A stretch of 64,000 nucleotides of DNA from NCBI GenBank assembly GCA_036172245.1, contig JAYWIR010000030.1, positions 682,001 to 746,000 of the forward strand. Direction: 5' to 3'. The stretch comes from Raillietiella orientalis. Its lineage: Eukaryota. Shown piece by piece: positions 2,901-61,975 of this stretch (the first letter of the stretch is position 1; each line of letters opens with the position of its first letter). Below the pieces are notes generated by a model. It made no database searches. It had not been told where the DNA came from and saw only the letters and a list, made by a program, of their open reading frames with translations. Made by a program: the position numbers and the translations under genes.

Positions 2901-4445
2901 GATCTCCCTTTAGGTGGTTTCTGAAAGCTTAAGAATCGAGAAGGCTCATCCGTTCGGCTTTTTGCGTGATTTTCCAGCATGGAAAAGAAAAGTTTTTCGG
3001 ATGTTTCCTTGGTTTTCAGTCCATTGCCCGGTTTCACCCGGTTGTTTCTTAGGGATCTTCTCTTTTTTTAATTTTTTTTCGACCCCTCGTTCCAGATGAT
3101 ATCACATGATTGGAACAAATTAAGATCGAGCTTCGGGTTTCTCAACCTGTCAGTGGTACAAGATACAGGTGCGCGCCTATCTCCCATACACGGTCCTTTC
3201 CCGGCCGCAAGTGGTTGGGAAGCTCTTCTGAAGTGCTAAGCGATCTCCTCGCTCTCTCTGGAAACCTTCCAGATCGCGCAAACAGCTTCACACTTTCCCT
3301 GGCGGTTGTTCGGCGATGCTGCTGCTGTTCTAGGATCCCCCTTGCGACTCGCCACCACGGTACGAGAGGAGGTGTGGTGGTCCCCCAACCGCCCCGCATG
3401 CGGAGAAGTGGGAAGGCCTTCACATTGATGACCTTGAGGGACAACGAGATGGCCCCACCCAGTGCATTTCAGAGTGCGACTTGCCAGCCCCTGCAGGGGA
3501 TAAAGAGGACGCCATGAGGATGCCGATGACCTTCCTCCCCTTATCCTCTTCCCCCCCTCCACGTACACACATAAAAAAGTTACATACCTTTTTATTGATT
3601 CATTTGGCACCCCTTTCCCCAATCGCATCCAGGATTCTCGGGACTTTGGCAGCCAACTAGTCCCAGTTGGATTATTATTATTATTTTTGTTTTCACATGT
3701 TTGTTCTTACTGGGTGGTCCTTTTCACTTTCTTAAGCTCCCTGGAAGGAACTGTTGTGCAGTCCCTTTCACCGAGCTGCATCTCTGGTGAGTCGTGTCTA
3801 GTTAAGAACTTTAGCTTGAAATCTGTTTCGTTTCGCGAGGCAGCGGATGCTCGCGAGATACTCGCGCCGCCGGTGTCTTACCGACCCGCGGAGATGAATC
3901 AGATCGCATTCTTTTCCTGCATGTGAGCGCTCAGCGAAGGCTCGGGAAGGCTTCCGTGGACCTCCAGGCAACGTGGGATGTGTCAGAGCGTGTTCCAAAT
4001 CTTTACCCGGAAAGCAAAGTAGAAGGTGTGTTGGGCTGGCATCGGGGTTCCGGGCAGAACGCGGAGAAAACGTTTTCGTCTCGTGAGAGAGGAGTCGCCG
4101 CTCCTTGCCGAAGGAACCGCTTCGGGAAGTCGGTCTGAACGTCCAGTCCCACTCCGGTGCTGTCGAGGCTCCACGATCCGTCTGCTCCACTGTTCGTGCA
4201 AGGCAAAAAAGTCAACTGCGCACGCAGCAATCTGCTGAACGCTTGGGTCGATGAGCACAGTATCCTGAAGACACCATCCGCGTTTCCCGGGGCGTGTTTC
4301 TTTGATGCACTCATTTCCTCTTTGCTGTTGGTTAGTCGCTAGCCAGTCGTTTGGCTGCCAGCATTTCTTTCAAGAATTGCTTGCTCCTTGGCGAGAAGAG
4401 CCTGCCGATGTGTTCGATCCAAAAGGGTTCGTGCGGGGGGGCCAT

Positions 4446-5262
4446 GCCCACGTCGGAGGCCACGTGGTCACGGTCTCCGCGTGTGGCAGCAACAAGAGTC
4501 GCGGGTTCGAATAACCGGAAAGAATCGGCGCAGAGAGATGGAGGTTCGTCGTGGGTTCGCGTTTCTCTCGCGAGATGGCGCTGGGTGGTCTCTCGCGAGA
4601 TGACGCTCCGGGTGCTGCACTGGTAGCGGATAACACCGGATGCCCCTGTCGACTGGCCGTGTCGGAAGTTGACCCTCTGGGATCCTTCCTGAAAGCAAGG
4701 AGCCGGTCGGTTCCCTTCGGGGGTCCCCTCCGGTTATGCAAAGGAGCTTTCCCCTCGCCTTCGGAGGGGACCCTCCGTCTCGTACCATGGAGCTGTTGGA
4801 TTGATGATGCCTCTCCAGTGTACAAAGGATAACGCTGTTGCCTTCGGGGAGCGAACCTTTCAGAGAAACTGGGGAGCATCCCTTCGGGGTTCTCTTTAGA
4901 GGATCAACAAGGAGCAGTCCCCTTGCGGGTTCCCTCCGGAGAAGAAAAAATGGAGCGGTCGCCTCCGGAGAGAATCAGGAAGAGGTTTCCGAGGCGGCAA
5001 CCAGGGCGAAGGTATGTTCCCTTCGAGAGTCCCTCCCAGGCGTGAGGGGAACGGACTTCTTCCTCCAGAGCCCTTCCTGGGTTCATAGGGTGGTCCCCTC
5101 CCGGGGTACCCCCTATCTTGAAGAATTACATGCACCCTCGGGTGGCGTGGACAGCGTGAAAGAGCTGCGTAGGTCGCCAAGTGCGCGACGGTTCTTGAGG
5201 TACTCAGCGAACCAAAAAAAAAAGGAAAACCCGAAAAAAGAAAGAAAGAAAGAAAAAAAAAA
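4446..5262 (+). mobile_element. tRNA-headed SINE-like element, copy 1, with tandem stem-loop body
   Basis: Head GCCCACGTCGGAGGC..GTGGTCA (A-box-like) and B box GGTTCGAATA at 4504. Collinear similarity with 45635-46588. Shared 3' end GAGGTACTYAGCGAACC, then an A-rich tail at 5214-5262. No internal TTTT. Candidate TSD AAAAGGGTTCG at 4421-4431 and 5259-5269. Confidence 0.8.
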
Positions 5263-8650: not shown

Positions 8651-8681
<31 letters not shown>

Positions 8682-9299
8682 CTCCTACTCCTTATGAATC
8701 GTGCATCTCGGGGAAAAGAGAATACCTCTCCAGCCCTATTCCTGCCTTCCCTCGGAAGAAGCCAGGATGTCCCAGGGGAAACACGGAAAATTTCCTTGCG
8801 GTTTGCAGGGTTTGCAAGTCGGGGGGCCGCGTGAGAGGGGCACGCCGGAGGCCAAGAGGGTCTTCGGGAGGAGAAAGGGAAGTTTGCACCCCCGCTCGCG
8901 CAGGAGTTGATATCCCGGAGCACCAAATCGAGGCTGGTTGTTTCTGTCGGAAAAACTGGCTCCAGGAGAGGGCGTCCGCAAGCCCAGGTTTGGCACCGAG
9001 CACCCTAGGACTGCGCGGACGAGCACCTGCGCGCTACGTCGCACGCGCGCTCTCTGGGCTCTTCCTCCTTGCTCCCTGTGTTTTGTTTCGGCTCGCTTTG
9101 CTCGCATATCCGCCCCCAAGAGTCGCAAGCAAGGGGGGGGGAAGGGGGGGGGAGGGAAATGAAGGGGCAAACAACTGAAAACTACCAGACGGAGCCCGAA
9201 GGCTTCAGCCGAGAGCATCCTTCCCCGAGGCAAGGTTCTTCTGCAGGGACTCGTGGCTTGTGATCACTTCCTGCCTGCTCATTCGTTGCTCGTTGACCC

Positions 9300-24025: not shown

Positions 24026-24761
24026 TGAGTTGGCGGTGCTTCTTCTCCTGTAAGTGTTCCCGATCGCTCTTTGGAATCAGTGCTAACTCAGACTATCCTC
24101 AAAAGGAGATATTTACCACGTTTCCTTTTTCATAAATAAAGGTACTTTAATCATCATTAGAGGTTTTCTTCATTACAGTCAGTGCATGGAAAAATTATGT
24201 TTTTCTGCTTCCAACGGTCGTCGGAAAACTTTTGAAAGTTAGGAAACCAGATCAGAGGAAAGATCGAGTCCTGCGCAGAATCCTCATCGCAGCTCTTCCT
24301 GTGGGAGCTTGCGTGGGCGTGTGGCAAAATTTCCTCGGTGGATTTCGTCGTGGTCTTTAGGAACGGGTTAGGAAGAGGCTTTATGTATAGGCGCCGATCA
24401 TTCCTCGAGTGGGGGTCCCTCTGCTCAAGCGGGGCGCCGTTCTGCCGGGTCGCCAGCAGCAGAATCTGAGAACAAATCGTGCATGAGCGCAGAGAAAGAG
24501 GAAAAGCCACGAGCCGAGTCTCGAACAAGACACATCATATCGTCGGTAGGAAAAAGCCGGATGTTCTCCCACGGAGAACGGCGGCGGCGATTAACGGGAA
24601 AGTGTGCTCAGCCGGTTGCGTGCTTCACTTGACCGCAGAGAAAGGAGGAATGTTCCCTCCCTCCCTTCCCCACTCCGCGATCTTCTCGTGCTTGGGTTAT
24701 ACGTACGCGGTTGGGTCGTTTTCTTTTGGTGGATGCACGGTGCTTCTTCGAGTGGCCCTTT

Positions 24762-24794
24762 TCTTCTTCTTCTTCTTCTTCTTCTTCGTCTTCT
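24762..24794. repeat. (CTT)n microsatellite
   Basis: Direct read, with one interruption. Confidence 0.9.
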
Positions 24795-24949
24795 TTATGC
24801 GTATTTTTTGCTTTCCAGAGCTATTCTGCGGTTCAGGCAAAGCACGTAACGTCCACTTTTGAGATCAGAGAACGGAAATTCTCCAGTCGAAAAGTCGAAG
24901 TGTTTGTATCACACGCGCTCACTCAAAGGACAAAGGAGTCTCAGGGAAC

Positions 24950-27900: not shown

Positions 27901-28400
27901 GAGTTATTTTTACGTGAGCTTTCTCTCCGACGTTTCGTTGGGAGATCCTCAGTGAATGTGCCGAACCCGTCCTTCCAGAATCAGTGACGCAATGGCGTAG
28001 TCGAAAATTTTTCCTCTTCCTGAGATACTATCCGCACGGCGCGGATGCTCTTCACGCGACCAACAACGAAATGCCAGGTATCTCTGCCGAGGTGAGCAGT
28101 GGAGGTCTTAGGGAATGGCGGCGCGCGCGACGTAGACCGAGGGATGGTTATTTTTAGAAAACAGCCGGAACCAGAATCAACTCCCGTGTACAATAATGAA
28201 AACGGGAACACAACTGCGTGTGTACACGTCGGCCAATTCGGTTGCCTCGCGAGCGTTTCGGAGAAGCGCGCCGGACAGACACACAGAAACCGAGAGCCAA
28301 TCGGAACCCCACCGGATGTGCCCCACATCGTACCAAGTGGTACGGTGTACACGAAACTTCAGCCAGCCTCTCTCGTTGCCAACCAGCCCCCTCCCGCCTT
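24950..28400 (-). mobile_element. Long decayed LINE ORF2 (CR1/L2/Jockey-type), GC-rich
   Basis: Ordered minus-strand remnants: linker KPWLRG (about 27200), RT FSAFAI, RFLPKGKQSV, GEPPREA (cf. GVPQGS) and SSDDMV (cf. YADD) at about 25650. Interrupted by stops and homopolymer runs; limits approximate. Confidence 0.4.
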
Positions 28401-30481
28401 CCTTCTCGGCGTTCCGAACCCCAAGTGGGGAGGTTGTTGCATGCTACCGGCCGAGACTTGCGCTCCCTGTCGAGGGCCCGCGCGGTAATGGATAGGGAGG
28501 GCCACGTTGGGAAAAACCTGGGTTTCGCAGCCCCGAAGTCCCGGACGAGCCTGGCTCCTGGACTCTGCTCAAAGCCTGCGGACGATTGCCAAGGCGAAAA
28601 GACGGGAGGCTGCGTTCCCGGAAGCGCGCGCGCCTTGCTCCCCAAAAGCCATTGCGCGGTGTGGCAAGCCTGCTCTGCTTCTGCGGCGCAGGATGAAAAC
28701 CGAGGGGTTGGTGTCGGCGAGCACCTCCTCTACTCGACGCCCCCCCCCCCCCAAAAAAAAAAACAAAAACAAAAACAAAAACAAAAAGAAATCAGAGGAG
28801 TTTTTCCCGTTCCGCGGGCGGGAGGAGGCAAATCGAATGTGCCGAAAAAGAAAGTCCTGCTCTCCCCTCCTTGGATGGCCTGGAGTCAACGGGGACCGCG
28901 CGGGCGGATCGCGCAGCACGGAGAGCGAAAAGAGAGCGGCGGCTCTCGGGCCAGCCGATCCACCACCACCACCCTCTTCCGCAGCCGAGCGCGAAGCGCA
29001 GACTCACCATCCAGCATGAAAATCCGACGTGCATCCGCATCTTCTCCCTCAGACCTCACGCTCCGTGGGCGCTGCTGCCGTCTCTGATTATTGCGTAATA
29101 CTGGAGGCGTCCTTTTGTACATATGCTGCCACAAAGAATGCTGTCGTAAATAAGACTGGTCAGCGATGCGTTAACGTAATTTAGGAGGAAAGAGAGGAAG
29201 GTCCTGTTGCAACCCGCGATGCCGTTGAGCGGAGCCTTGGCGCGACAGGACGGGAAGTCGGCGTTTCAGCGTTCCGCCGATGTGTAATGCCTAATTGCTG
29301 TGTGTTTGTTGCGTGCGTCCATGCGTTTTCCTCTCTCCCTCTCTGCGAAGACGCGCCAGGCGTAATTGGACGAGCGTTTCCCAGAAAGAGGTTGCATAAA
29401 CCCGGGGCAGAGTGGCGAACTTGCCGTCCCCGATCCACACCCGTCGGAGGATCTCCTCCACCGCGAGCGACTCGCGCGCTCCGCGGGTCCCACGGAACCG
29501 GTCACGCGCGGGCCGCCCCGCGTCCGCCGCGAGAGCTGCCGCCGCCGCCACCACCCCCACACACACCCCACCCCACTGCCGAACGAGTCGACGAGAGGTT
29601 CGGGCGGCGGGTCCACCGTTCTTCCGTGCTAGGAGGACTGCTCGAGGGTCCCTCGCGGTCGCACCACGACTCCGGACGACGGCGCGCTGACCCTCGAAGA
29701 GGGTGGTGGTCGTCCAGTGGTCGTTCGGAGGGGGTCGCCTGCTGGGGAAATCCGTTGCTGCGAAGCAGAGGAGGAGGAGGAGAGAAAAAGTTTCCTGTCC
29801 TCCCATCTGCTCCGGGCGGTGGCTGCGACCCGACCGCAAAAACTCGACCGCGTCGCGCGTGCGCGCGCCTCTCTTTTCGTGGACGACGGGACTCACGGGC
29901 GGGAGGGAGGAGGAGGAATGCAGCGCATGCTTGCGTCTGTGAGCACGCAACTTCCGTCAGGTCCAACTCTTGCGCGAGGTGGCTGAATCAGCGATCTTGA
30001 TGAATGCATCACCCAATTTGAATGGGGGGGGGAGAGAGGAGGAGCTCGGGAGAGAACACGAAGGGGAGAGGAACAACAAAGAAGCGACGAACGCGCCAGG
30101 CAAGAGCAGAGGCAAAACAAAGCAAAGACATTTTTCCTCGCGACCTTGAGCTCTGGAGCGCTCACGGGAGGCGTTGGCAACCGCGTTCCCAGGCGTGTTC
30201 CGGGAAGAGCGCGACCAGCCAGCCCCCCACACGCACACACACACTCTCGGCGTTGGGGCGAGCGGGGCAAGGTAGCGCGACTGTGATCCTTGGACGAGAT
30301 CCTTGGAGGGAGGCTGTAAGCCAGGTGGTCGGCGGTGGTGCCGCAGGAGGGAGGCAGGGGCAAGGAGAAAATCCCGCGCACGGCGGGGTGCTCGGTGGGG
30401 CGAGGGGATGGGTGAGTGGGAAGGCGGCGTTCCCGTCGCTTGGCGCTTCCTTCCGCGAGCGGCCGGCGGAGCCGCGCGCGT

Positions 30482-30642
30482 CCCGTCACTCCCGCCAGGC
30501 ACCATTAGGACAGCGCCTTCAGGGGACCCAGCTGCCAATGCCCGGCCCGGCTCCCCCAGTCAGCCCCCTCCCCGCCCTTTCGGAGTCCTCCCTCTCGGCC
30601 GTGAGTCCCGAAAAAAGAGAGGGGGAGGGGATCGATAGCTGC
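30482..30642. repeat. Dispersed direct repeat, copy A (about 160 bp)
   Basis: Aligns with 32229-32379 (16 mismatches over the first 72 positions, by eye). Both copies end in GGGATCGATAGCTGC. Confidence 0.85.
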
Positions 30643-32228
30643 TTCTGCTCTCCGCGGGGGCACGTGCAAAGGGGAAGTCTCAAGGGGTCGGCAGGAGGAG
30701 GGCGAGAGAGGGAAGAGGCCGACCTCCTCGGCCGGGTGGAAGGAGCACCAGTAAGGCAAGGAGGGAGGAGGGGCGCTCCTTCACAACTCGGGAGAAGGGT
30801 CCTCGGTCGGATGCGTGGGTGGGTAGAGATGGGGAGGCGGGCGGGGGAGACAGGACTTTAGAGGCACTCTGCAGTGACCTTCGGGGTCGGAAACACAGCA
30901 ATGCCGTCGAGAAGGTGCTGGGAGAGAAAGGGAGGGGGGGGGGAGGCAGAGCAAAGACGCGACCCCGCCGTTCTCTGGAAGAACAGCAGCCGGCTTCAGG
31001 AAGTGGGTAGCCCCTGCCTGTGGTTGCGGTGGCCACAAGCCGCTCGCGTAACCTCGGAGCGGGAAGAATCTCGAACGAACCAGCGGGATCGGAAGGAGGA
31101 AAGGGGCGGGAGGAAGTCTTTGAGTTTGCTCCCGAGGCGGACAGGCTCTCCGAAACCATGGCGACAGGCGGCAGCGAGCTCTGCCGAGCGAGAGAGCCCT
31201 CGAGAAAGGGCAGCGGCGAACGAGAGATCGACCCGCTCCATCCCCCCCTCTCCAAGGCGCTCCTACGGGAGCCGCAGGTCGCTTCGGGGTGCCAACCGGC
31301 ACTTCCGCGGTTTCTTCTTATCGCCCCGGGGGGTGAGCGCTCGTTCGCGACCGCAGGGGGGAGAGGACGCCCTCTCCAGGTCGCAAGCTTACCGCAGAAA
31401 CCGCCGCTCCGAAGAGGCGAGTGGGAGGTGCAGGGGTTGGAGTCGCGCACGCCCCTGTCCTCTGGTGCCTCCTCCCTTCGACCGGGGCGCGGTGCCACGG
31501 TTCCTACTCTTCTCCCCCTCCCCCATCCCTTGCGAGGGCGGCGGCTGCGGCTGTCAGCGGGGAAAACGCCCGAGGGAAGCAAAGTGCGCGCCAAACGGTC
31601 CGTCCTTTACCCCCCCCCCTCCCCCCGATCTCTCCTCTTCTCGGCGTTTTGGAGACAAAAAACAACAACAAAACCAGGGGAGGGGGGGGGGGAACACCCG
31701 CCTGGAGCCAATCAAAGTCATCCGCGTGCACGCATCCTCCGCCGACGCCTTCCGCCGTTTCCGGTAAGCTGCGTTCGCCTCCCCCCTCCCCCCCCCTTCC
31801 CGGGCGCTCACGAAATCGTAGGCGGTTCGCAACCACCCACGGGACCGCGCCCCTGCCGCTTGCAGCAGCGACGTGGCAACTGCGCCTTCGCATCCGCTAC
31901 GGAAGTGGAAACACGCTGCTGGGGAGAGGAGGAGAGGAGAGGAGAGACTGAGGTAGGGTGGGGGGAACGGGAAACCCAGGAATCCATGTGCACGAGAGGG
32001 GATACGGCGCTTGACGTCACGGTCCTACGAAAACACCCGGTGCATTCCCGGGACATTCAAAACCTCCCGTGGGAGCTTCGAGTTGAGGGAGGGGGGAGTC
32101 GCAGAGGGAGGCTCCTACATTTGGGGGAGGGAGGGGGGGGGAGGCCGAGCCCAGGAATGGTGCCCCCTCCTCTTCCTTCAGTCCCGAGTGCCCGCCCAGG
32201 GGAAGCAGTGGTGCCGCCGGCTGCTGCG

Positions 32229-32379
32229 CCCGTCTCTCCCGACAGGCGCCATTGGGACGGCGCGTTCCAGGGACCGAACTGTCGATGCCCATTTCGGCTC
32301 CCCCAAGCGGTCCCCACCCTGCCCCGCCGGGGTCCTCCTTCTCTTCCGTGAAAAGGGAAAGGAAGGGATCGATAGCTGC
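32229..32379. repeat. Dispersed direct repeat, copy B (about 150 bp)
   Basis: Aligns with 30482-30642. Confidence 0.85.
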
Positions 32380-34626
32380 GCCTGGGGGTGCTCCAGAGGG
32401 TGGTCGTTCAGCAGCCTTCCACGATGGATCCCATGATACCAAAGTGACCTCTTTCCAGTACTGAGAGTCGGCAATTAGGAGCCATTGAGAAGCGAGTGGC
32501 ACTCTCGAAACTCGTGGGCAGCACGTACCATGAGGGATTTATCTGAGCAATTTTACTGAAGGAACCGTGATAATTGCTAAGGACAATGAAATAAATTCCC
32601 TCTCGGGAAATTGACGTTTGCTATTACCATGGAGGGAAGGGTAGGTTTGCTAGAGGTTTTACGCTGTTATTTCCAGATTCCATCTTTCGTCAAAAGCGCC
32701 GAAGCGAGATGGAGTCGAGCAGTTGCAACCAAGCTATACACGTCTTTTTCTTGATAAAAAGTTGAAGATTAGAAACAAAAGTAGAAAGCAAAGAGGGACT
32801 GGAAAATAACGTTCCACGGTCAGACAGTTCCACCTTTAGACACAGAGAAATTGTTGAGGGAACGTCAAGTCAACATTCATAAGATTTTCAGGAAACACTG
32901 ATCATCTATCATTGAGAGAGAGAGAGAGAAGGAAGTCTCAGGGAATGAAGATTTCATTACTTTTTGCGTTTAGGTTCTCTACGGTGGCGAGAGGCATCTA
33001 ATTCAGAAAAACACATCATGTGCATTTTCTGAATCAAACTTAAAACTTACACGAAGTCTCTCGTTAGCCATTCTTCGAAGCATACGCTGTCTATGTTAAC
33101 ACTAATGGCATATAAAGAAAGTAATAATTGCTAAAAATTATTAAAAGACTACGGATTTACCTTTCCCGTTGAAAACGCGTGGTTGCATGTTTTTTAATGT
33201 TTTAAAATAACTTGCATCGTGGAGACTTATTAGAACATATTCGGGATGCTTTTCTCAGCCAGCCACTGAATGGAGCATTACATTACCTTGGTATCATCTT
33301 CAAATTTTCTTGTACTGAACCAAAGGTTTGAAAAGTGCTTCCTTCATAATCCCGGAGAGTCATGGATTAATTGAATGAATATTTAAGAGCCTGATTGTTC
33401 AGCAGTTGAGAAAGAAAAGAGCTTGCAACATGAAAGTTTTCCGATAAATAGTCTCGAAGCGGTACAGTTCAGAAGGATTAGTTATTGTTTTCCACATGTA
33501 ATAGACAATTTAAGGAGAACAAAAAATTCGATCTTCGATATGTCAGTTGGTCATCAACTGATGACTAAGCATATGAATGTGTCTACTGGAAAGATTAGAA
33601 ATACAGTAGAAAATCGTGTTTAGAATTCACGCTCATTAATGATCAGCTGAATGTCATTAATAATTGTCTTAGCGTGAATACGAAACATTTGAAAACTGAT
33701 AGAGCGACTTACAACTTTCAGTAAGCCTCAATGGAGATTCTTCATTGGAAAACTTCCTCATATATTTATTTATTCCTATCAAAGTTTCAGGTATTGAATA
33801 CTACTACTGCGAAATCATGAACTGCTGTTCATTCGTACAGAATGTCAGAGGTTGCAGTATATTTATAGCGTAATAAATAAAAAGGTCGAAGTTTCTTGGT
33901 TGTTGTGCGATATTGTTCCAAAATGAAGGGAAGGATTAATAGTTTTTCTAACCAACTTTTAAATAAATTTCTAAAACGAAGACAAGTATTTATAAAGACT
34001 CAAAATTTAGCTTTCCTGAGTTTTTTGCTCATGTTTTTGGAGTGCTCATTAATGGACACATTTAATTAATGAAATAAAAACATTAATTCCAAAATATACT
34101 TCATTACGTATTTCATAGTGTGAACTGAAAATTGCAATTTAAGAATCTTGATATTTAGAACTGAAGCTTTAGAAGCGAACTCCGAAAAAGATGAGGAACC
34201 AGTAATAAAACATTTTTCGAAAAATACATTGGGAACTTTAAAATGTTCCCTTAGTTGAGAGGCACCGCCCTTGATCTATTCAAATGTAAATGAATTATGC
34301 AAAAGGCGGAATAGGAGTGTATGGTTGAAAGTATCACTGAAACTTAAGATTATTATGGAAATCCGTGGTGCACCATGAATGAATGGTGTGCGAGGTGGTA
34401 ACTCTGAAATAAGTGCAAAAACTAATTTACTTTTCGTGCGAATTGGCACAGGTTTTGTGCCGATCTTTATGTTTACTTGCCGAAGGTCCTTTACCTCAAT
34501 TCCATTATCCACCTCGTTGTTGACGGTGTTATATACCCCACAAAATTGTGGGGAGGGGGTGGAAAAATGTACCCGTAGTTGATTCGAAGATCTTTCGTTT
34601 ATTGGTGGTGCGTAAATAAGGATAAC

Positions 34627-35898
34627 ATGCATGCGGATGAGTGTGAAGATTCCAATGACCTGCTTGTATCGGAAGTCAATAATTATGCAGATATTCAACA
34701 CGTGATTGATTCTGAAACAGGTAAAGAGTCAATTTATCCATACCGTATTCGTACGTTCAATGAAATAAAGAATGCTTTTTACACTGCTGTTGTAACTTAA
34801 TTTTTATTCACAAGATAAAATGTTTTAAGTATTCTCATACGTGTGTAGAGTTGAAAATTTCTTTCTTTGTTTTCGTTTGTCTGCAATAACTTCATTTTTA
34901 TTCAAGTGGTGTCATGCTTTAAATGTACTCTTCCAATGGAACTTGCTACCGAAAAGTTGCATTATGAAAAGCAAGTACATTTAGAACAAAAACATGATGA
35001 GGATGGTGACTTCGTTTTACGGAATCGTAATACACAAAGCAACATAGACATTTTAATATATGTAGGTATAACAAGAAGTTTTTTTTAATAATGAATAATC
35101 GACATTTTACAGAGCATAAATTAGCCACAAGTGTAAATCTAGTAGGAGAACAGCTTTGGCAAGGTGCTCTTTTTTTAGCAGACTACATTTTGCATGATGT
35201 TGCACTATTCAAAGATAAAACTGTGCTAGAACTTGGAGCTGGTATTGGATTATGTAGCATAGTTGCCTCCATGGTAGCAAAACATGTGATTGCTACAGGT
35301 TAGTATTTGGTATTGTTTCCACATTTAGAAAAAAAAATACAGTGCAATGGAAATAGATAAGACCTCAGTTCTGGGATGTTGTGAGAAAAATGTAAAGCGA
35401 AATTCCCATTTACTTAGCTGTGAATTGACTGTGTTGGAATTAGACTGGAATCCTGGAAAAACTGTGAATCATCAATTAGCAGCAATTCTTCCTTCGGTTG
35501 AAATTGTTATTGCTGCTGATAGTGAGTGTATTGTTTAGTTTTGTATATACTGTGCAATTCCAAGCCATTTACTCCATTGATACAACAGAAGCTTTTTTCA
35601 ATACCATTAACAGTTTTCTAAAGATGAATTTAAGAATGAAGTTTTTCATTGCTTTAGAAAAGAGGTAACATCTTTAGTTTGCTGGGATAAGTAGTTTGTT
35701 CTTTGCAGATATATATTCACACTAGCAGATGCAGATGTTGTGGCCCCCATATATGAGCACTTTCTTTCTTGCTTAGACAAACTTAAAGCATGGAATGTGC
35801 ACTTAAAAATATGCCAGTTGTCTTCAGCTTTTCCTCAGTGTTTTAATTACAGTAGAAGTGATGATTTGGTTTTATGGATGTTGCTTAATGATGCATAA
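34627..35898 (+). CDS. METTL22: Methyltransferase-like protein 22 (seven-beta-strand lysine methyltransferase)
   Basis: Exons 34627-34720, 34907-35065, 35113-35298, 35357-35521, 35565-35664 and 35709-35898. Motifs DEDGD, EHKLATSVNLVGEQLWQGALFLADYIL, SAM-binding VLELGAGIG, ELDW and ALEKRYIFTL. Confidence 0.9.
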
Positions 35899-35958
35899 CG
35901 TGTTGCCTTGTATCAAAAATAAATAAAGTAGTTTCATCTGGAATTATGGTTATTTATT

Positions 35959-41445
<5,487 letters not shown>

Positions 41446-44300: not shown

Positions 44301-44759
44301 GAATACACACTCTAACCTGCTATTATCTGATGATTTCCATTAATAAAAAATTAATGCTACGGCATTAGGATTATAAAGCTTTGATCATATGTTATCTATT
44401 AGCAAAATTCCAAAAGGTTGTACATAGTACTTTCAAGTTAAGATCTTTAAAGAATTTTTTTTCCAAATGATCATTTATTTTTAAGAGTATAGTCATTTGA
44501 TAAAGCAATTATCTTTGGGGCCTAGTTAAAGCAGAATTTTGCAACAATTTTGGCAAATTTAAAGACTAAATCATCCCATTTAGTCTTTGATGTTCTAAAG
44601 AGTTACGGCAAGCGATGGCAAAAGTATCTCAATATCAACATTACATTATAATTATTCGAAATTATGCTTTTCGCCACCAACTAGCGCCGTGCTTGGTATG
44701 AGTTGGTGATGAGACGAGTATGATAGAAGACACTACCCGAGCTCGGCATTGTTCTTTAT

Positions 44760-47700
44760 GTGAATAGGAAAACCTTGTGAAAGAAACCACGTATGTAGTG
44801 TTGATGCTTGTGTTTATGATTTGGAAGCATATTTTTTAGTCTAGGAGACTGGGTTCGCACGGATTCCTGGTCTTGTGCCAAGACAACTGTCTTGGCACAA
44901 GACCTATCTGGTGTATCCTCCAGTAACAGAGCATGGGATCGCACAGTGTGTAAGACTCATACCTCATGAGTTTGGAACAGGAACAGCATGGAACTGTGAT
45001 CTAAATGTGCCAGGAGCAGTCGGTCTTCTCCTCGGCTGCCCAGGTGAACGCTCACGCTGAGACCACGGCACTCGTGTTGCACACGAGCATGGCAATGTGG
45101 GCAGTGTGGTCGTCAAATGCACCACCAGTGGTGAGAAGGAACGAAAAACTTGTCATCTTCAAAATTCAAGTAGTGGATGTAACCATCCTGAAAGTGTGCC
45201 CGGAATTTAAGCATTCAAGATAGGACCAATAAAACTGTCAGCTGCGAGAGACATACATTGTAGAAAAAGAACGCGAACTTTAAATGGATCTGGGAATTGT
45301 GCCACACAATCGAGGTTTCGTAGTCTACATTGACTAAAAAAGTACAGAAAGTCTTGCTGAAAAAGACATCAATTTCAGCAGCCAGATCGTGGGCAGTATA
45401 GGGAAGGCCACGACCATTGCAGATCTCCAGTCGGGAAGAGTCGGACATGAATTCCATACGAACCAATTGGTGGTCACGAGAAACTCGAAAGGAAGTAAAG
45501 GATGTGCGATTCCCCAGCCTGATGAGAGAGATCTTCAGCTAGAGGATCCTCATAATCAGACTGGATGAGGATGCGTTCGTTTCAGGATTCGCCAATATGG
45601 ACTCGCTACTGGGAAGTGACGATAAAACACAACAGCCCGCGTCGGAGGCTTTGTGGTTAAGGCTTCCCGCGTGGCACCATGCGTCGCGGGTTCGAATACT
45701 TGGGCAGATAACTTGACGCCACTGCGTCGTTTGGGTTCCGAGTTTCTCCTACAACGGCGCTGGTTGGCCGAGACATTCGGGCGTGGCCCCGGCGGTGGAT
45801 AAAGCCGGCGGCCTGCCGATGAAGGCCGGAACAATGGGAGTCGACCTTCGGGTCCTCCCAGGAATAAAGGAGTGGGGAGTACCCCCTCCTGTGTGCAAAG
45901 GAGAGTGGACCCCCGTCACCGGGGGGACCGCCTCCGGTTTCAAGATGGAGCAGGAGCCCTCACGGGCACCTCTCCAGTCGTTCAAAGGAACGGACCCCCC
46001 TGTTGGGGGGTCCCTCCGAGTCGTCGCCTCTTCACAGAGTGTGTACAAAGGAAAGAAGCAAAGCGAGAGCGATTCCCTGCGGGAAGCTGCAGCGCCCCTT
46101 CTGAGTTTCGGAAGCACCCCTGTGGGGGTTGCCTTCAGAGGAGTGAATAAAGGAGCGGTTCCCTTGCGGGTTCCCTCCGGAGAAGAAATTCCTAGAAGCG
46201 GATCCTTTCCGGGTTCCCTTCGGAGAAGTTGAAATGGAGAGGACCACCACCCCGCAAGGGGGTGTGTGTCCCTCCGGAGAGAATGAGGAAGGAGAGTTCC
46301 CTTCGGGGTTCCCCTTCGGAGACAACCAGGGTGGGAGGTGAGATCCCCCCCGTCCGGGGGGGATCCCTCCCCAAGCGTGAGAGGAACGGACTCCGAGCCC
46401 TTCCTGGATTCAATAGGGCGGACCCCATCCCGGGGTGCCCCCTATCCTGAAGAATATTACACTGAAGAATTACACGCCCCCCCCTGCGGGTTGCCGCGGA
46501 CAGGCATGGAAACAAAAGTGTGTTAATGTTTAAAAAGAGCAACGCGCGCCGCGAGGCACGCGACCGGCTCTGAGGTACTTAGCGAACCAAAAAAAAAAAG
46601 AAAACTTTTAAAAAAAAAAAAAAAGCTGGAAGGAAAACAGCGAAGACAGAAGAAAAAGAAGAACCCAAGGATTACCATCGTCCTAGGCCAATAGTAACGA
46701 TCTCCTCGTGGGGTCGCTACTGGCCTTTTAAAAAAAAAAAAAAAAAAAACACAACAGCCCACGTTTTGCACGGGATGAAAGCAGTTCGGCCAATTAGTAG
46801 CAGCTTGTTGTAGGGCGAAATGTTACAAGTGTAGTCAGGACGATCATCTGCACGCTGCAGATGATCGGCCTGAGCAGCTCTAGTTGCACCCAGCCAGAGA
46901 AGTGCTGCTTCCGCAAGTTGATGTGGCACAAGAAGAGGGATTTTGCACTCGGTGGCTTCGACTGCAGAGAAATGCACAAACCCGTAAAAGAGGCGCACTG
47001 TGAGACAGCAGCCACATCGAGAACGAACCGAATGCAACACAGAACCTGACCACAGACAAGCACCTCACCGAATCAGCAGGAAGGGAAAAGCAAGAAGAAA
47101 ATGAACAAGTGTGTCGCGCAAGCGCCGGAAAGTGTCACAAATGACGAAATGGTGCAAACCCAGCCGGATAATTAAAAAACACAAAGACTGGATTACCACT
47201 GCATACAGAACAGAGATGCCATAATATAGCCAGATAAACTCTTGCGACGAGTGCACGACCTGCTCTGTGCAGTTACAGGGAAGGTTACCAGAAAAAAGTA
47301 CACGGTTGCAGACTGCAAGACCAGACCAACGAGGTTTGCTACTGCAATCAACCCCCCCTCCTCCCCCCAAAAGTACGAAAGATCCAAACAGAGCCAAAGA
47401 ACTACGACCGAATTAAATGGTGGTGGCAGAGGCTAGCGGATACACAGCTGAACTGACAAGTTAATGTGTAGACCGTGAACGGAAGCGCTGAAAATCCAGA
47501 CTGAAGAGAATCTCATGCAGACATGGACTCCGATCGATTCCAATTAAGGAAAGGACTGACATCAGCAGAGGGGAAGCACTTCAACGCGAAACCCAAGTGT
47601 GCCAAACAGAGACATGGCCTTGCTGCTGCAAAACAAAAAGTGCAAGGTTCATCTGAATCCCCAACGAATGTTTCGGATCAGAAAGCACATGACCATTCAG

Positions 47701-50444: not shown

Positions 50445-50507
50445 GCATTGAAGGAGCTGAGTGTGTTGTGACACAAAAAGTGAAAATTTGATATGAAATA
50501 AGAAAAT

Positions 50508-51341
50508 ATGGATGCTTTATGCAATAGCAATAATGCCGGTCTGAATTCGAAAGAAAAAATAAATATGCTGAAAAAAGGTTTAACATTGGATTTGAATGCT
50601 GCAAGGAATTCAAGGAAACAGAAATTTTTCAGTCCGATTCTGAGCTCCCCTGATTTGAAAATGTTGAAGTTAGCATCTCCAGAGCTTGAAAAACTAATAA
50701 TACAGCACAATTCTCTTGCCACACCAACGCCAACTCAGATTTTCTTCCCCAAAAATACAGTAACTGAAGAACAAGAGATGTTTGCTAAAGGTTTTCAAGA
50801 TCAGTTAGCTGAGCTTCATAACAGTGATGGTGGAAATAGTTGTGGACCGAAAAATTCAGTGGATATTTTTAACATTAGCACCAATTCGAGAAATATAAGC
50901 AGTACTTCAGAGTCGTCTGATGACAAATCATGCAATAATTATTTGATTGGCTGCAATCTGCATAGATCAGAAATAGCTGATTCCAACTCATTTGTCAATC
51001 CATCTTTTGTAACGCAAATTTTACATGTGAAAGGTGAACCCACCACCAACATGAGATCTTCATCTCCTGTCTCTCCTATTGATATGGAAACTCAGGAAAA
51101 AATAAAGTTAGAAAGAAAACGACAAAGAAACAGGATTGCAGCATCCAAATGTAGAAGAAGAAAGCTGGAAAGAATTGCAAAATTGGAGGAGAAGGTCAAA
51201 CATTTATCTGGTGAAAACAATGAATTAATGACAGTAGTAAATAAGCTACGAAATGAAGTGTATTGTTTAAAGCAAGAGGTTGCTGAACATATTCATTGTG
51301 GTTGTGAAATTTCTGCTAATCAATCTATAGAACTCAACTGA
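50508..51341 (+). CDS. Jun: Transcription factor Jun (AP-1 bZIP), intronless
   Basis: 277 aa ORF. JNK-docking [64 protein letters not shown], basic region [21 protein letters not shown] and leucine zipper. Confidence 0.98.
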
Positions 51342-51480
51342 TTTTTTAATAAGTTTTTATAAATCACTATTGCCAAACATTAAAAACAGGCCTGTTCCAG
51401 TTTAAGAATGTACATGTAAGTATATCGAAAATATTTATGAATAAGAAACCAATACAAGTGTGTAAAAACGATGAAACACT

Positions 51481-54413
51481 TTATTTGACTGTGATGTTAA
51501 CAATAGAAATATCTTCATGAGGTTTATCGGTCTTAGGATTAGTCTTCACATTACTAATGTTCTGTACAACTTCCATACCTTTTATTACTCTTCCAAACAC
51601 AGTATGCTTGTTATCTAGCCAGGGCTAATAAACAGTTGCATATTTAGTAATTCAATATTGTGTCCTTACTGTTGGTATAACAGTTATGAAGAATTGACTG
51701 CCATTTGTGTTTGGTCCAGCATTGGCCATGCTGACAGTATAGGGGCGATCATGACGTAAAGATGGATGAAATTCATCTTCGAATTCTCCTCCCCAAATAC
51801 TTTCTCCTCCTGTACCAGTTCCTGTAGGATCACCTGTCTGAATCATAAAACTCTTGATGACCCGATGAAAAATATGCCCATTGTAATAGCCATTTTTGCT
51901 ATGCACACAAAAATTCTCAACAGTTTTAGGGCATTCTTTCATAAAAAGCTTGATGTACACATCTCCCAAGGAAGTGTGAATGATAGCATTTTCGTACAAA
52001 CGCTGCTGCCCTTAAAAGCACTTGCACAAAATGCTGACCACTAAGATTTACCTGTGGCTTCAGTAGCTGATATTATATCTTCTTTGGATGGTTTTTCATT
52101 GAATATGTCTCTATCATTGTCTACACTTTTGCTATCTTCAGGACCTCTTCTGCCATTCCTTAAAATATATCAGAAATATTAACAATTCCTCCATACTTGC
52201 TGAATAAGTAGAAACGATTTTTCTTGAAAGCAGTGCAGCAAAGAGTAGGATCTGCTTGTGATGATTCCAATGTGGGATTTTCCGCTGCCTCCATTTCCAT
52301 GGTTATTACTGCTTTTCCTTTTTTACTTTTACCCTTTGATGAAGCTTGCTTGTCTGCTAATTATAGTTATTACATACTTGAAACAATCCCAGTTGCAAAA
52401 AGCGCAAGTTTTCTGATTTGCCAATAACTTTTACCAGTCGATTATCATGTACATTAATTAATTTGATGCCCAATAGTGTGGCATACATAAGAAAATGACC
52501 AGTCTCATCAAAAACTAAATTACTCCAGTTAATTGCTTCTGATTTCTCCAAATCTCTCTCTGTGGCCATTCTAAAAGAGCTCTATGCCAGTCTTTAAAGT
52601 CTCTTACCTCTTCCCGAATTCCATGTTAGGTAGCATTTGTTGCACTTGTTGCAGATCAGAATATGACTGTAAACTTTCATCAAATACTCGACTAAGGCGA
52701 CCAGATAGAAATTTGAATAGTCGAACCTATAATACACAATTTGCTCACAGTAATGTGATAATTAAAATAATTTAATAATTACTTTGCGATCTGCTCCCAT
52801 GGTAGCAAACTGACTTCCATCATTTGTGAATGCCAGTGAACGAGGAAAAGTTTTATTTTTCAAAAACTCGTATAAATCTGTATCAACTTTTGCATCAAAT
52901 GCTACATTGCGTGGAAACATGAATTCATGTTGCAGGCCAGCCCAATATTCCAACATACCAGAACGATCTGCTGATACAGCAACCCTATATGGAGCATTGT
53001 ACTGAAAACCGCACTGCACAGATTCCACACCAATGCACTTACTTTGATAAGTACAACAGGGTGCTGATGAATTGCTGTCAGCTTATGAATAGGAGCATTG
53101 CTTCCCATTCCATCATATACATAAATTATATGGCCTTCTTGCTCCGACCTATAAAAAGGAAATCCAAGTTATAAATCCAAGCATAACACTTACACAGCAA
53201 TAGCAGCAACAGAGTCTCCTGTACCATGGATCCACTCACAGCAATATGGAACATACTCCAGATCCAGCATGTTAATCATATCTTCAAGGAATTAGCAAAT
53301 TATTAAATCCTTTACTTACCAAAGTTAACAATATCATATACCTTCAATGTTTTGTCATTGGATATAGAACTTAGCAAAGAACCATCATGGTTGGTAGAAA
53401 TGCATTGGATGTTGCCTATGTGACTTCGAAAGTGTTTCACAAATTCAATACCCTCATCCTGTTTTTTCCAAAATTTGATATGTCCATCACAACTAGCAGT
53501 AATCAGAAACTGAGATCTTAAATAGCATGAATAAATGGCTTTCTTAGAATGATGCTTACTTAGTCATGGCAAGGTGAGTTACAGTATCTCTATGCATGTA
53601 GCTACGTTCATACATTTCTGCTCTTGGTAAATTCTCTATGTATAAACTTTCAAATTCTAATTCTAGAAAATAAAATCTCAATTAGGATGCATGATTTTCA
53701 GTAAACAAAAGGAAATAGCTAACATATGCAAAGTTTTATTTGCATATATTTGCAAAGCACACTCCCCCTTTTAATTGTACAAAAAAATGCATTCCACTGA
53801 ATGGAATGAACAGTTAGAAATAAAAAGGTTTTATTTCTGATTTTAACATTTCAATCATTGAAATGAAGAGCTACAAGAGAAATAAGCAGAGCTGAAAAAC
53901 TGAAAACAGAACTGAAATAAAACTGAAGCTTCAACAGAAAACACAAATAAACAAGTGTTTATTAAAAATGTTTTCGTGGCATAACCCAAAAGTTCTGTCA
54001 TTTGCTATATAAACTTTGTACTTAATGCAGCCACAGTGCCAACCTTTGAGGAATCCAAGTTGAAAACCAATAAACATTTACTAAAAGTTTCTTGAAAATA
54101 TGCAGCATGCAACCCATAGCAGAGAAAAAAAACACTCTGTTAACATCTTATCAATAGTGCATTCTCGAAAATCCAAAAAAACAGTAGTAGTTTCAAACTA
54201 GACAATAATGTTTATGTGGTACTGATTACCGGATTATGTAAGCATACTTCCAGAACTGAAAATATCAAAGTAACCTTTTTTTCTCTTTTTTGGGAAGGAG
54301 ACAGCGTTGCCATTTCGGTGTGTTGATTTGTTTTTCGGATCTACGTCAACCTCTGCATATTCCTGGGATTCATCATCCGATGCAATGGAATTCACATCAT
54401 ATTGTTGGATCAT
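51481..54413 (-). CDS. PPWD1: Peptidylprolyl isomerase domain and WD repeat-containing protein 1
   Basis: 12 coding exons. [31 protein letters not shown]40 region, [13 protein letters not shown] and a C-terminal cyclophilin domain ([17 protein letters not shown]...[29 protein letters not shown]). First coding exon 54275-54413. Confidence 0.96.
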
Positions 54414-60715: not shown

Positions 60716-61975
60716 ATGAACAATAATGCCAAAAATGGATCCAATCATATTCCATGGTATAAATAATATGATGGGATGTTTTGGAATGTGCAGTGCTTAT
60801 TCCAGGGTGGAAAAGTATCGTCCACATACATTTGCAGAAGTCGTGGGTAATGAAGAAATGATTTCACGGCTTGCTTCATTTGCACATGATGGAAACATGC
60901 CAAATATTATTATAACAGTAAATCATATGAGGTACATGAACCTAAACCCATGTATGTTCAGGGTCCACCAGGAGTAGGAAAGACTACTACTATTTTATGC
61001 CTGGCTCGTTGTTTACTTGGAACAGCCATGCGTGAAGCTGTTCTGGAACTTAATGCTTCTAATGAAAGAGGCATTGATGTAGTACGTGGCAAAATTAAAA
61101 TGTTTGCTCAGAAGAAGGTGACCTTGCCTCCAAACAAACACAAGATTGTGATATTGGATGAAGCTGATAGGTACAATGGTTATAGTTTGTAATCAAAGAA
61201 GCTCTTAAGCATGACAGAGGGAGCATTGCAGGCGCTCCGTCGTATTATGGAAATATATAGTCACACGACTCGTTTTGCTTTAGCATGTAATGCCAGTGAT
61301 AAGATCATTGAACCAATCCAGTCACGATGTGCTATGCTTAGATTTACCAGGCTAACTGATGCCCAGCTGTTGGCAAAAGTCTTGGAAGTTTGTGACAAGG
61401 AAAAAGTAGGTGTTTATTACTTAGTCATGACTTATGCCTTATTGCAGCTGAATTACACAGATGATGGACTAGAAGCAATAGTATTTACAGCCCAAGGTGA
61501 TATGCGCCAGGCCCTTAATAATCTCCAGTCTACAGCACAAGGGTTTGAAGTAATTAGCAGCATGAATGTTTTTCGTGTCTGTGATGAACCTCACCCTTTG
61601 TTTATCAAGGATATGTTACACCATTGTCAAAATGGTAATTTAGAAGAGGCATACAAGGTAAATGTGACATGCAATGGTACCCTGCTGCAGATCATTTTTC
61701 TGCAGATTCTTTTTCATTTATGGAAATTGGGTTATTCCTCTCAGGACTTGATGGGTAGTTTTCTCAAAGTATGTAAGACTCTGGATTTGCCCGAGTTCCT
61801 TAAACTCGAATTTATTAAGGTAAATAAGTCAAACATTCTATTGATTTTGAGATTTTGCAAGGAAATGGGACATTCCCATATGAGAGTGGTTCAAGGAGCT
61901 GACTCCCTATTGCAGCTTTCAGGACTTCTAGCTCGGCTGTGCAGAGCAGCCACACAACCAGTTCCCCCATTTTAA
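60716..61975 (+). CDS. RFC2: Replication factor C subunit 2 (40 kDa; yeast Rfc4 orthologue)
   Basis: Introns 60757-60805, 60918-60961, 61171-61209, 61406-61447, 61658-61705 and 61820-61861. Motifs PWVEKYRP, Walker [25 protein letters not shown], Walker B ILDEADSMT and IQSRC. Confidence 0.97.

What the first reader, a model, noticed from the sequence alone, without database searches (positions are those of the whole stretch)
45836..46445. Pol III-type retroposed RNA built from a tandem array of about 12 bulged GGAG...CUCC hairpins
Seen: after the tRNA-like head, the element is a run of 20-45 nt stem-loops separated by roughly 9-15 nt, mostly purine-rich linkers. Most units open with GGAG (or GAAG/AGGG), carry a 1-2 nt 5' bulge and a variable upper stem and loop, and close with CTCC (or CTTC/CCCT). 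Examples are GGGAG-TC-GACC-TTCG-GGTC-CTCCC, GGAG-T-GGGG-AGTA-CCCC-CTCC and GGAG-C-AGG-A-GCCC-TCAC-GGGC-A-CCT-CTCC. Loops include cUUCGg and cGCAAg, which are established extra-stable RNA tetraloops. An internally duplicated unit changes GGAG/CTCC (46152-46178) to GAAG/CTTC (46195-46221), a compensatory pair. Inference: a constant base with a variable top suggests a multivalent protein-binding scaffold or sponge, or a precursor cut into unit hairpins. I do not recognise this architecture from described SINE body domains (CORE, V, Deu/Nin, Meta, Ceph).
Basis: partly seen in the sequence, partly recalled or inferred. Interest (0 to 1): 0.85.

Follow-up and report, generated by a model that had tools for sequence, protein, structure and literature searches.

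The report
Long SINE with hairpin-repeat body
This is a young copy of a roughly 1-kb non-coding mobile element (a SINE-like retroposon) in an invertebrate animal genome; its middle is a string of about 14 small GC-rich hairpins, an unusual build for such elements, and nothing yet shows a function for the host.

Summary
Window 45836-46445 carries 13-14 short bulged hairpins closed by GGAG/CUCC-type 4-bp helices. They fold far better than shuffles (z about -6) and occur 11 times against 3 expected.

The hairpins form the body of a retroposon at 45639-46745. It has 15-bp target-site duplications, an invariant B-box-like block, no T4 run in 951 nt, and A-tails each preceded by T4. A second, older and shorter copy with its own duplications lies at 4432-5258. 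Sequencing-run contigs hold many more diverged copies.

The hairpins are diverged tandem units (U8/U9 80% identical) whose number differs between copies. All four base-helix pairs show double changes that keep pairing. Elsewhere covariation is weak: 3 compensatory against 9 broken pairs. The old copy has largely lost the fold (z about -2.5).

Best reading: a lineage-specific, unusually long SINE-type element whose hairpin array is kept in the active source lineage but not in inserted copies.

Not supported or untested:
- tRNA origin of the head: ARAGORN and Rfam find none.
- Sponge or scaffold function: untested.
- Small-RNA precursor: unlikely, because the stems are too short.
- Repbase, Dfam and SINEBase could not be searched.

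Moderate interest.

The parts
45624..45638 (+). Left target-site duplication (15 bp, starts with AAAA)
   Evidence: Identical 15-mer at 46746-46760
45639..45705 (+). 5' head with A-box-like and B-box-like motifs. The block at 45683-45698 is invariant between the two copies, and GGTTCGAATAC lies at 45689-45699.
   Evidence: Alignment A1. ARAGORN and the Rfam tRNA model do not call a tRNA.
45706..45835 (+). 5' body spacer with two longer hairpins, moderately conserved between copies
45836..46444 (+). Array of 13-14 bulged hairpin units (spacing 31-68 nt between unit starts) closed by GGAG/CUCC, GAAG/CUUC, GGAA/UUCC or AGGG/CCCU helices and separated by purine-rich linkers
46445..46588 (+). 3' domain. 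The last roughly 24 nt before the tail are nearly invariant between copies and include a small terminal hairpin.
   Evidence: Alignment A1
46589..46624 (+). First A-rich tail (A11 G A4 C TTTT A15) containing the first T4 of the element at 46606-46609
46625..46729 (+). Extra 3' module, unique in the window. It ends in a hairpin plus TTTT (46726-46729). Candidate 3' transduction by read-through to the next T4, or a nested small insertion.
46730..46749 (+). Terminal pure A20 run (its last 4 A overlap the duplication)
46746..46760 (+). Right target-site duplication
4432..5258 (+). Second, older and shorter copy of the same family. It is flanked by the 11-bp duplication AAAAGGGTTCG (4421-4431 and 5259-5269), has fewer and partly decayed hairpin units, and has a degenerate A-rich tail.

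Best explanation
The stretch is the body of a young insertion (45639-46745) of a lineage-specific, non-coding, poly(A)-tailed retroposon of the SINE type. The element is about 0.95 kb without its tail.

Inferred life cycle:
- An internal A/B-box promoter in the head drives RNA polymerase III through a T4-free body.
- The transcript ends at a T4 in or beyond the tail and carries or gains an A-tail.
- A poly(A)-dependent LINE endonuclease and reverse transcriptase copies it into AAAA-starting target sites.

The body is a diverged tandem array. Each unit is a purine-rich single-stranded linker followed by a hairpin. The hairpin has a 4-bp GGAG/CUCC-type clamp, a 1-3 nt bulge on the 5' side, and a C-run/loop/G-run top of variable length. 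Units arise by duplication and are gained, lost or truncated between copies, in the manner of a minisatellite.

Pairing is kept in the transpositionally active source lineage. The most likely reason is that a compact chain of hairpins stabilises a long Pol III transcript, or packages it with the LINE or host RNA-binding proteins. Pairing decays neutrally once a copy is inserted.

Shown here: retroposition hallmarks, multi-copy status, the non-random hairpin array, unit homology, base-helix covariation, and decay in the old copy.

Inferred, not shown: Pol III transcription, the partner LINE, and the benefit of the hairpins.
For: Retroposon:
- Perfect 15-bp duplications and a pure A20 tail flank copy B. 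An 11-bp duplication flanks copy A.
- One 955-nt contig in run X1 covers 45650-46579 with 17 mismatches and 8 gaps. In run X2, 95 contig pieces were laid, in identity classes 4/17/38/36.
- It is non-coding. The two long ORFs across the element were not put to Pfam; the 231-residue minus-strand ORF has no relative (754 candidates, none at E <= 0.001). No reverse transcriptase or endonuclease was found in the other 127 window ORFs tested (15 + 112).

Pol III-type:
- A 16-nt B-box-like block is invariant in 2 of 2 copies.
- There are 0 T4 runs in 951 nt, and only 77 of 2000 dinucleotide shuffles lack one.
- The two T4 runs (46606, 46726) each stand directly before an A-run.

Array is real:
- z is -5.8 to -6.0.
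- 11 spaced clamp pairs against 2.98 +/- 1.35 expected (0 of 1000).
- Other GC-rich tiles in this window do not fold this way: 32 of 37 tiles have z between -2.2 and +4.35.

Units are a family:
- U8 and U9 are 80% identical (z 8.5). The median z over all 91 unit pairs is 2.6.
- A covariance model built from only 3 units gave 34 further hits at E <= 10 over both strands of the 64 kb. The best 8 and 16 in all lie on the + strand inside the two bodies, 2 lie on their - strand, and 16 lie elsewhere.
- The model recovers 13 of 13 hand-defined regular units of copy B, plus a piece of U6.

Pairing is kept:
- In 23 model-aligned units, 91 of 92 base-helix cells are standard pairs (88 Watson-Crick, 3 G-U).
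- All 4 pairs show a second Watson-Crick type.
- 0 of 2000 partner shuffles reach this level (0.989 against 0.898 +/- 0.012).

Decay after insertion: copy A has z -2.5 against -6.0 for copy B.

Unit number varies: alignment A1 shows unit-sized gaps between the copies, and X2 contigs skip 78-180 nt (these joints have short sides and are weak).
Against: - The head is not detectably a tRNA. ARAGORN finds 0 genes. There is no Rfam tRNA match at E <= 10 in three searches.
- No strand preference was seen. The minus strand folds as well (z -5.64 against -5.97). Within the modelled pairs, G-U cells (6) do not outnumber A-C cells (5). A DNA-level process that preserves palindromes is therefore not excluded.
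- Outside the base helix, covariation is weak. Over 10 unit-to-unit comparisons there were 75 unchanged pairs, 3 compensatory, 7 kept through a one-sided change, 9 broken and 21 gapped.
- The base-helix count comes from hits chosen and aligned by a model that rewards pairing, so it is biased upward.
- At 951 nt the element exceeds the 75-662 nt range of the 175 SINE families listed in SINEBase in 2012 (PMC3531059, passages read).
- Lack of T4 in copy A alone is not unusual (368 of 2000 shuffles lack one).
- No partner LINE is in the window.
Confidence: 0.6

Rival explanations
1. Neutral minisatellite inside a retroposon. A short near-palindromic unit expanded by replication slippage, unequal exchange or reverse-transcriptase template jumps. 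The hairpins are a by-product of the unit's palindromic sequence, possibly renewed by template-switch mutation, and do nothing for the RNA.
For: - Units are homologous and vary in number between copies.
- Both strands fold equally well.
- CTCCGGAG palindromic junctions are enriched (2 against 0.07 expected, reached by 1 of 1000 shuffles).
- Covariation beyond the base helix is weak (3 compensatory against 9 broken).
Against: - Units have diverged strongly in sequence and stem length, yet nearly all still pair in the young copy (z -6). TRF finds no array even at score 30.
- All 4 base-helix pairs show double changes.
- The units share a strand-asymmetric design: a 5' bulge and a C-run before a G-run. 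The model hits 16 units on the + strand of the bodies against 2 on the - strand.
Confidence: 0.25
2. Host-exapted structured RNA. Transcripts of the family act as a multivalent protein-binding scaffold or sponge.
For: The layout is regular: bulged hairpins with a constant clamp, separated by single-stranded purine-rich linkers. It resembles engineered hairpin arrays; that comparison is recalled and was not tested here.
Against: - The older copy has lost much of the fold.
- Unit number is not fixed between copies.
- Nothing here shows that any single copy is kept under selection; testing that needs the same site in other species.
- No Rfam family matches.
Confidence: 0.07
3. Precursor of small RNAs. 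The Pol III head drives a chain of hairpins that are cut out, as in tRNA-linked pre-miRNA transcripts of murine gammaherpesvirus (recalled; only a search listing was seen).
For: A promoter-bearing head is followed by many hairpins in series.
Against: The hairpins span only 21-40 nt, and the longest uninterrupted helix is 10 bp (U12). That is well short of the roughly 20 bp or more used by Dicer-type processing (established knowledge, recalled). The only miRNA-family matches are far below threshold (19.9 bits against a gathering score of 58).
Confidence: 0.03
4. Not a Pol III SINE. It is instead a retrocopy family of a Pol II non-coding transcript, or a non-autonomous element with a LINE-derived promoter. 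The B-box-like motif would then be a coincidence.
For: - No tRNA, 7SL or 5S similarity was detected.
- Its length of 951 nt is above the SINEBase range.
- Two internal AATAAA hexamers lie in linkers at 45863 and 46146.
- SINE-like elements with LINE-derived heads are described in molluscs (PMC4758252, passages read).
Against: - The B-box-like block is invariant in both copies.
- T4 is avoided over 951 nt (77 of 2000 shuffles).
- T4 stands exactly before both A-runs.
- There is no AATAAA within 30 nt of either tail.
Confidence: 0.15

Closest known systems
[quoted passage not shown]
   Same: Head with box-B-like motif, non-coding body, A-rich tail, target-site duplications, many diverged copies, dependence on a LINE in trans.
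   Different: - The head is not recognisable as a tRNA by ARAGORN or Rfam.
- At 951 nt without the tail it exceeds the 75-662 nt range of listed families.
- The body is a tandem array of hairpin units, not a unique sequence or a conserved central domain.
SVA-type composite retroposons with an internal VNTR (recalled from general knowledge, not from a call)
   Same: A non-autonomous poly(A) retroposon whose middle is a GC-rich tandem array of units of tens of bases. Unit number differs between copies.
   Different: SVA is hominid-specific, is thought to be Pol II-transcribed, and is built from Alu-like and retroviral pieces. Its repeat units are not described as individually clamped bulged hairpins. 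No sequence relation was tested or is expected.
T+ SINEs of mammals (B2, Dip, Ves, Ere, C). Their tail carries AATAAA, a Pol III terminator and an A-rich stretch, and their Pol III transcripts are polyadenylated (PMC8466645 and related papers; search listing and abstract starts only).
   Same: A T4 terminator sits inside or at the end of the tail and is followed directly by an A-run, at two places (46606 and 46726).
   Different: There is no AATAAA near either terminator. The host is a non-mammalian animal. Copy A lacks the T4. Polyadenylation of the transcript was not shown.
Stem-loop-bearing SINE domains, for example the Vhc subdomain of V-SINEs, which forms a preserved hairpin in molluscs and arthropods (PMC4758252, passages read)
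   Same: A hairpin in the SINE body that is preserved in the predicted RNA fold.
   Different: Vhc is one conserved 37-39-nt block shared across phyla. Here there are 13-14 lineage-specific units with a variable top.

Membership tests
SINE (SINEBase definition) | Head derived from a Pol III RNA (tRNA, 7SL or 5S) carrying the internal promoter | tested here: inconclusive
   A B-box-like block is invariant in 2 of 2 copies. ARAGORN finds 0 genes. There is no Rfam tRNA, 7SL or 5S match at gathering score or at E <= 10.
SINE (SINEBase definition) | Retroposition hallmarks: A-rich or simple-repeat tail and variable target-site duplications | tested here: met
   15-bp and 11-bp duplications and A-rich tails in 2 of 2 copies.
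SINE (SINEBase definition) | Dispersed multi-copy family, non-autonomous (no coding capacity) | tested here: met
   Two copies lie 41 kb apart. There is 1 contig in X1 and 95 contig pieces in X2. The longest ORF has no relatives.
SINE (SINEBase definition) | Short length (listed consensus sequences are 75-662 nt without tail) | tested here: not met
   Copy B is 951 nt and copy A about 781 nt without tails. The range comes from PMC3531059.
SINE (SINEBase definition) | Transcribed region free of Pol III terminators (T4 or longer) | tested here: met
   0 T4 in 951 nt (77 of 2000 shuffles lack one) and 0 in 781 nt (368 of 2000).
SINE superfamilies with a conserved central domain (CORE, V, Deu, Nin-DC, Ceph, MESC, Snail, alpha, beta) | Presence of the shared central domain sequence | not testable with these tools
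Rfam holds none that matched.
T+ SINEs | AATAAA signal plus Pol III terminator plus A-tail at the 3' end | tested here: not met
   T4 followed by an A-run is present twice, but there is no AATAAA within 30 nt upstream of either. Copy A has no T4.
Pol III tRNA-linked pre-miRNA transcripts | Hairpins with stems long enough for Dicer-type processing (about 20 bp or more) | tested here: not met
   Hairpins span 21-40 nt and the longest uninterrupted helix is 10 bp.
Any Rfam family | Score at or above the family's gathering threshold | tested here: not met
   0 matches in the whole window. The best sub-threshold match is 19.9 bits against a threshold of 58.

The most novel reading that the evidence does not exclude
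The family is a natural Pol III 'hairpin-array' RNA. It is a retroposon whose fitness depends on displaying a variable number of identical docking sites, the GGAG/CUCC clamp with its 5' bulge, on a roughly 1-kb transcript. Many copies of one RNA-binding protein (its LINE's chaperone or a host factor) would load onto it cooperatively. Unit number would evolve like a VNTR, and the tops would be free to vary as long as they pair. That would be a new SINE body principle and a natural counterpart of engineered multi-hairpin tags.
Probability: 0.15. Interest if true: 0.7.

Novelty: new variant of a known kind. Interest (0 to 1): 0.4.

Why it matters
SINE bodies are mostly of 'unknown origin', and their RNA structure is rarely known to matter. 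A body built entirely from clamped, bulged hairpin units, with a covarying clamp and a variable unit number, would give a tractable case. It could be used to ask what RNA features a non-autonomous retroposon needs: stability of a long Pol III transcript, protein loading, or LINE recruitment. It would also stretch the accepted size range of SINE-type elements. If the array is only a palindromic minisatellite, the case is an ordinary lineage-specific repeat.

Tried and rejected
- **Whole-genome copy collection.** No genome is held for this window.
- **Metagenome scan.** An 18-nt conserved stretch gave 53 loci, but BLAST shows only seed-length matches of 20-33 nt, so all are chance.
- **Other collections.** Prokaryote-genome and viral-contig scans with the conserved 3' end gave 0 and 0. 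The phage collection gave no match.
- **Earlier scan notes.** Nothing by place or by sequence.
- **RNA evidence.** No RNA holder is listed among the runs, and all four runs are held as contigs. Nothing can be said about expression. X3 and X4 laid nothing.
- **Protein search with the 231-residue minus-strand ORF.** The aim was to fish other copies out of assemblies. There were no hits.
- **Tandem Repeats Finder.** It finds no array in the body even at score 30. blastn-short self-comparison found almost nothing. The units are too diverged for these tools.
- **A generic clamp-plus-hairpin regex scan of the window.** It was not specific, giving loose hits in other GC-rich DNA, and was dropped.
- **Taxon.** The Jun ORF is at best 53-54% identical to centipede and insect Jun. 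RFC2 is uninformative, at about 58-60% to many animals. The host is therefore described only as an invertebrate animal, probably an arthropod.
- **Extra 3' module, 46625-46729.** It has no second copy in the window. A 10-12-nt match to 5632-5643 and to the upstream flank is at chance level.
- **Literature.** Five full-text searches found no description of a SINE body made of a hairpin-unit array. This covers only the open-access library searched.
Full report
**Setting**

The window is animal DNA. It holds a single-exon Jun ORF (50502-51341), RFC2 exons, SUZ12-like exons and a cyclophilin exon. The best Jun relatives are centipede and insect proteins at 53-54% identity. RFC2 is uninformative. 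No assembly is held for the window. The background is AT-rich (GC 0.30-0.40) with GC-rich islands.

**The observation**

The stretch 45836-46445 contains a chain of short hairpins. I parsed these units:
- U1 45836-59
- U2 45869-89
- U3 45900-35
- U4 45947-75
- U5 45987-46017
- U7 46111-36
- U8 46152-78
- U9 46195-46221
- U10 46236-75
- U11 46291-46317
- U12 46333-71
- U13 46383-46404 (weak)
- U14 46414-44

There is also a composite unit U6 (46055-46109) and a 12-nt mini-hairpin (46028-39).

Most units open with GGAG and close with CTCC. Variants are GAAG/CTTC, GGAA/TTCC and AGGG/CCCT. Most carry a 1-3 nt bulge just inside the clamp on the 5' side, and a top that is usually a C-run, a 4-5 nt loop and a G-run. 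Linkers are purine-rich and often start with GGAGA right after the closing CTCC.

**Is it more than chance?**

- The 610 nt fold at -303.8 kcal/mol against -263.8 +/- 6.9 for dinucleotide shuffles (z -5.8; 0 of 20 reach it).
- With base-pair span limited to 45 nt, z is -5.97 (0 of 200).
- Spaced GGAG..CTCC or GAAG..CTTC pairs occur 11 times against 2.98 +/- 1.35 (0 of 1000).
- I tested 37 tiles of 610 nt, mostly from the GC-rich parts of the window. The array has the lowest z (-5.29). Next come tiles touching the second copy (-4.82, -2.78), the element's 3' end (-2.89), and one tile upstream (-3.56). The other 32 range from -2.2 to +4.35. So the fold is a property of this element and not of GC-rich DNA here.
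- The reverse strand folds nearly as well (z -4.3, -5.64).

**What it belongs to**

The array is the body of a retroposon.
- The 15-mer starting with AAAA at 45624-45638 recurs at 46746-46760, directly after a pure A20 run.
- Between them lie a head (45639-45705), a spacer (to 45835), the array, a 3' domain (46445-46588), an A-rich tail with a T4 (46589-46624), an extra 105-nt module ending in a hairpin plus T4 (46625-46729), and the A20.
- A second copy lies at 4432-5258, flanked by an 11-bp duplication that also starts with AAAA.
- The two copies align over head, body and 3' domain, with mean column identity 73% and unit-sized gaps.
- In public runs, one 955-nt contig (X1) covers 45650-46579 with 17 mismatches and 8 gaps. 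95 contig pieces of X2 lie on the element, in identity classes 4/17/38/36 (99+, 95-99, 90-95 and under 90%). X3 and X4 laid nothing. X2 also carries the exact 5' junction and may be the source sample, so it is not independent evidence for this locus.
- The element is non-coding. Its longest ORF has no relatives. No reverse transcriptase or endonuclease domain is found in 127 ORFs from the rest of the window.

**Pol III or not**

For Pol III:
- A 16-nt block containing GGTTCGAAT is invariant in both copies.
- There is no T4 in the 951 nt before the tail of copy B, and only 77 of 2000 dinucleotide shuffles lack one. Copy A also has none in 781 nt, which is unremarkable (368 of 2000).
- The only two T4 runs of copy B stand immediately before the two A-runs. 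This fits termination at T4 followed by an A-tail. It also suggests the extra module is a read-through (3' transduction) to the next terminator. A nested small insertion is equally possible.

Against Pol III:
- ARAGORN finds no tRNA in the window.
- Rfam finds nothing at gathering score, and no tRNA, 7SL or 5S match even at E <= 10 on the head alone.

So 'tRNA-like head' rests on motifs only.

**Units are a diverged tandem family**

- U8 and U9 are 80% identical (z 8.5 against shuffles). U8/U11 and U7/U9 follow. The median z over all 91 unit pairs is 2.6.
- TRF sees no array.
- I built a covariance model from three 27-nt units only (U8, U9 and the copy-A counterpart of U8) and searched both strands of the whole window without filters. 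It gave 34 non-training hits at E <= 10. The best 8 and 16 in all lie on the + strand inside the two bodies, 2 lie on their minus strand, and 16 lie elsewhere.
- Restricted to the body of copy B, the model recovers all 13 regular units and a piece of U6 on the + strand. For most independent units the + strand scores higher than the minus strand, for example U5 at 17.2 against 6.2 bits and U7 at 17.2 against 6.1. U3 is the exception.
- The clamp GGAG/CTCC is its own reverse complement. The strand bias therefore reflects the shared asymmetric design: the 5' bulge and the C-run before the G-run.

**Covariation**

In the 23 model-aligned + strand units (14 from copy B, 9 from copy A), the four clamp pairs give 92 cells. 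Of these, 88 are Watson-Crick, 3 are G-U and 1 is A-C.

Each of the four pairs shows a second Watson-Crick type:
- Pair 1: G-C to A-U in U14 and its copy-A counterpart.
- Pair 2: G-C to A-U in four units.
- Pair 3: A-U to G-C in U14 and its counterpart.
- Pair 4: G-C to A-U in U13 and its counterpart.

No partner shuffle reaches the observed pairing (0 of 2000; 0.989 against 0.898 +/- 0.012). The result is the same without the three training rows.

This count is biased upward, because the rows were selected and aligned by a model that rewards pairing.

A less biased look used ten pairwise unit comparisons on each unit's own minimum-energy fold. It gave 75 unchanged pairs, 3 compensatory, 7 kept by a one-sided change, 9 broken and 21 gapped. 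Most of the broken pairs lie in comparisons with copy A units. G-U cells (6) do not outnumber A-C cells (5) in the modelled pairs. TTCG outnumbers CGAA, 5 to 0 in copy B and 5 to 2 in copy A, but two of copy B's TTCG are clamp-linker junctions.

In sum, pairing of the clamp is maintained through double changes. Evidence for the upper stems, and for an RNA-level rather than DNA-level cause, is only suggestive.

**Age and constraint**

Copy B looks young. It has perfect duplications, a pure A20 and a 98%-like contig elsewhere, and it folds at z about -6. Copy A looks old. It has a degenerate tail and truncated units, and it folds at z about -2.5 on either strand. Inserted copies thus decay. Whatever keeps the hairpins acts on the source lineage.

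**Mechanism**

I read the element as a lineage-specific, unusually long SINE-type retroposon. A poly(A)-dependent LINE mobilises it at AAAA-starting target sites. Its body grew by duplication of a linker-plus-hairpin unit. Its hairpin chain is kept because it helps the RNA in the element's own life cycle, through stability or compaction of a roughly 1-kb Pol III transcript, or through loading of LINE or host RNA-binding proteins.

The main rival is a functionless palindromic minisatellite. A host function (scaffold or sponge) is not excluded but has nothing in its favour yet. A small-RNA precursor is unlikely because the longest uninterrupted helix is 10 bp.

**Comparison with known elements**

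- It works like a SINE but fails the usual size range: 75-662 nt for 175 families (PMC3531059, passages read).
- It lacks a demonstrable tRNA head.
- The T4-plus-A-run tails recall mammalian T+ SINEs (listing and abstract starts only), but there is no AATAAA nearby.
- The variable-number GC-rich array recalls the VNTR of SVA elements (recalled, not tested).
- Preserved hairpins are known in SINE bodies, for example the Vhc subdomain (PMC4758252, passages read), but as a single conserved block.
- Five full-text searches found no description of a hairpin-unit array as a SINE body.
- Repbase, Dfam and SINEBase could not be queried, so prior cataloguing cannot be excluded.

**Verdict**

The element is a new variant of a known kind. 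Interest is moderate.

Noticed in passing
window 46625-46729: A 105-nt module sits between the element's first A-rich tail and the terminal A20. It is unique in the window and ends in a hairpin followed by TTTT. It could be a 3' transduction from Pol III read-through to the next terminator, or a nested small retroposon.
   Followed up: partly
window 44869-44904: A perfect 15-bp inverted repeat with a 6-nt loop lies about 750 nt upstream of the element. The tile 44636-45245 folds better than shuffles (z -3.56).
   Followed up: no
window 5300-10000 and 24000-32500: These are large GC-rich blocks (GC up to 0.68) in an AT-rich genome. They have many long ORFs on both strands but no Pfam domain and no excess folding. 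They contain an internal 73%-identical repeat, 30482-30642 against 32229-32379. Their nature is unknown.
   Followed up: partly
window 5601-5620: A run of about 20 T lies about 340 nt downstream of the older copy. It may be the A-tail of another retroposon on the minus strand.
   Followed up: no
window 35031-37142, 50502-52011, 60890-61975, 23366-23857: Host gene pieces: a lysine-methyltransferase-like exon (+), SUZ12-like Zn and VEFS-box exons (-), single-exon Jun (+), a cyclophilin exon (-), RFC2 exons (+), and an ORF with a weak dual-specificity-phosphatase-like match below Pfam's cut-off (+).
   Followed up: partly
window 4432-4460 against 45639-45650: The older copy starts about 17 nt further upstream than the young copy, with a G-rich extension before the shared CGTCGGAGG. 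Either the transcription start differs between subfamilies or the young copy is slightly 5'-truncated.
   Followed up: no
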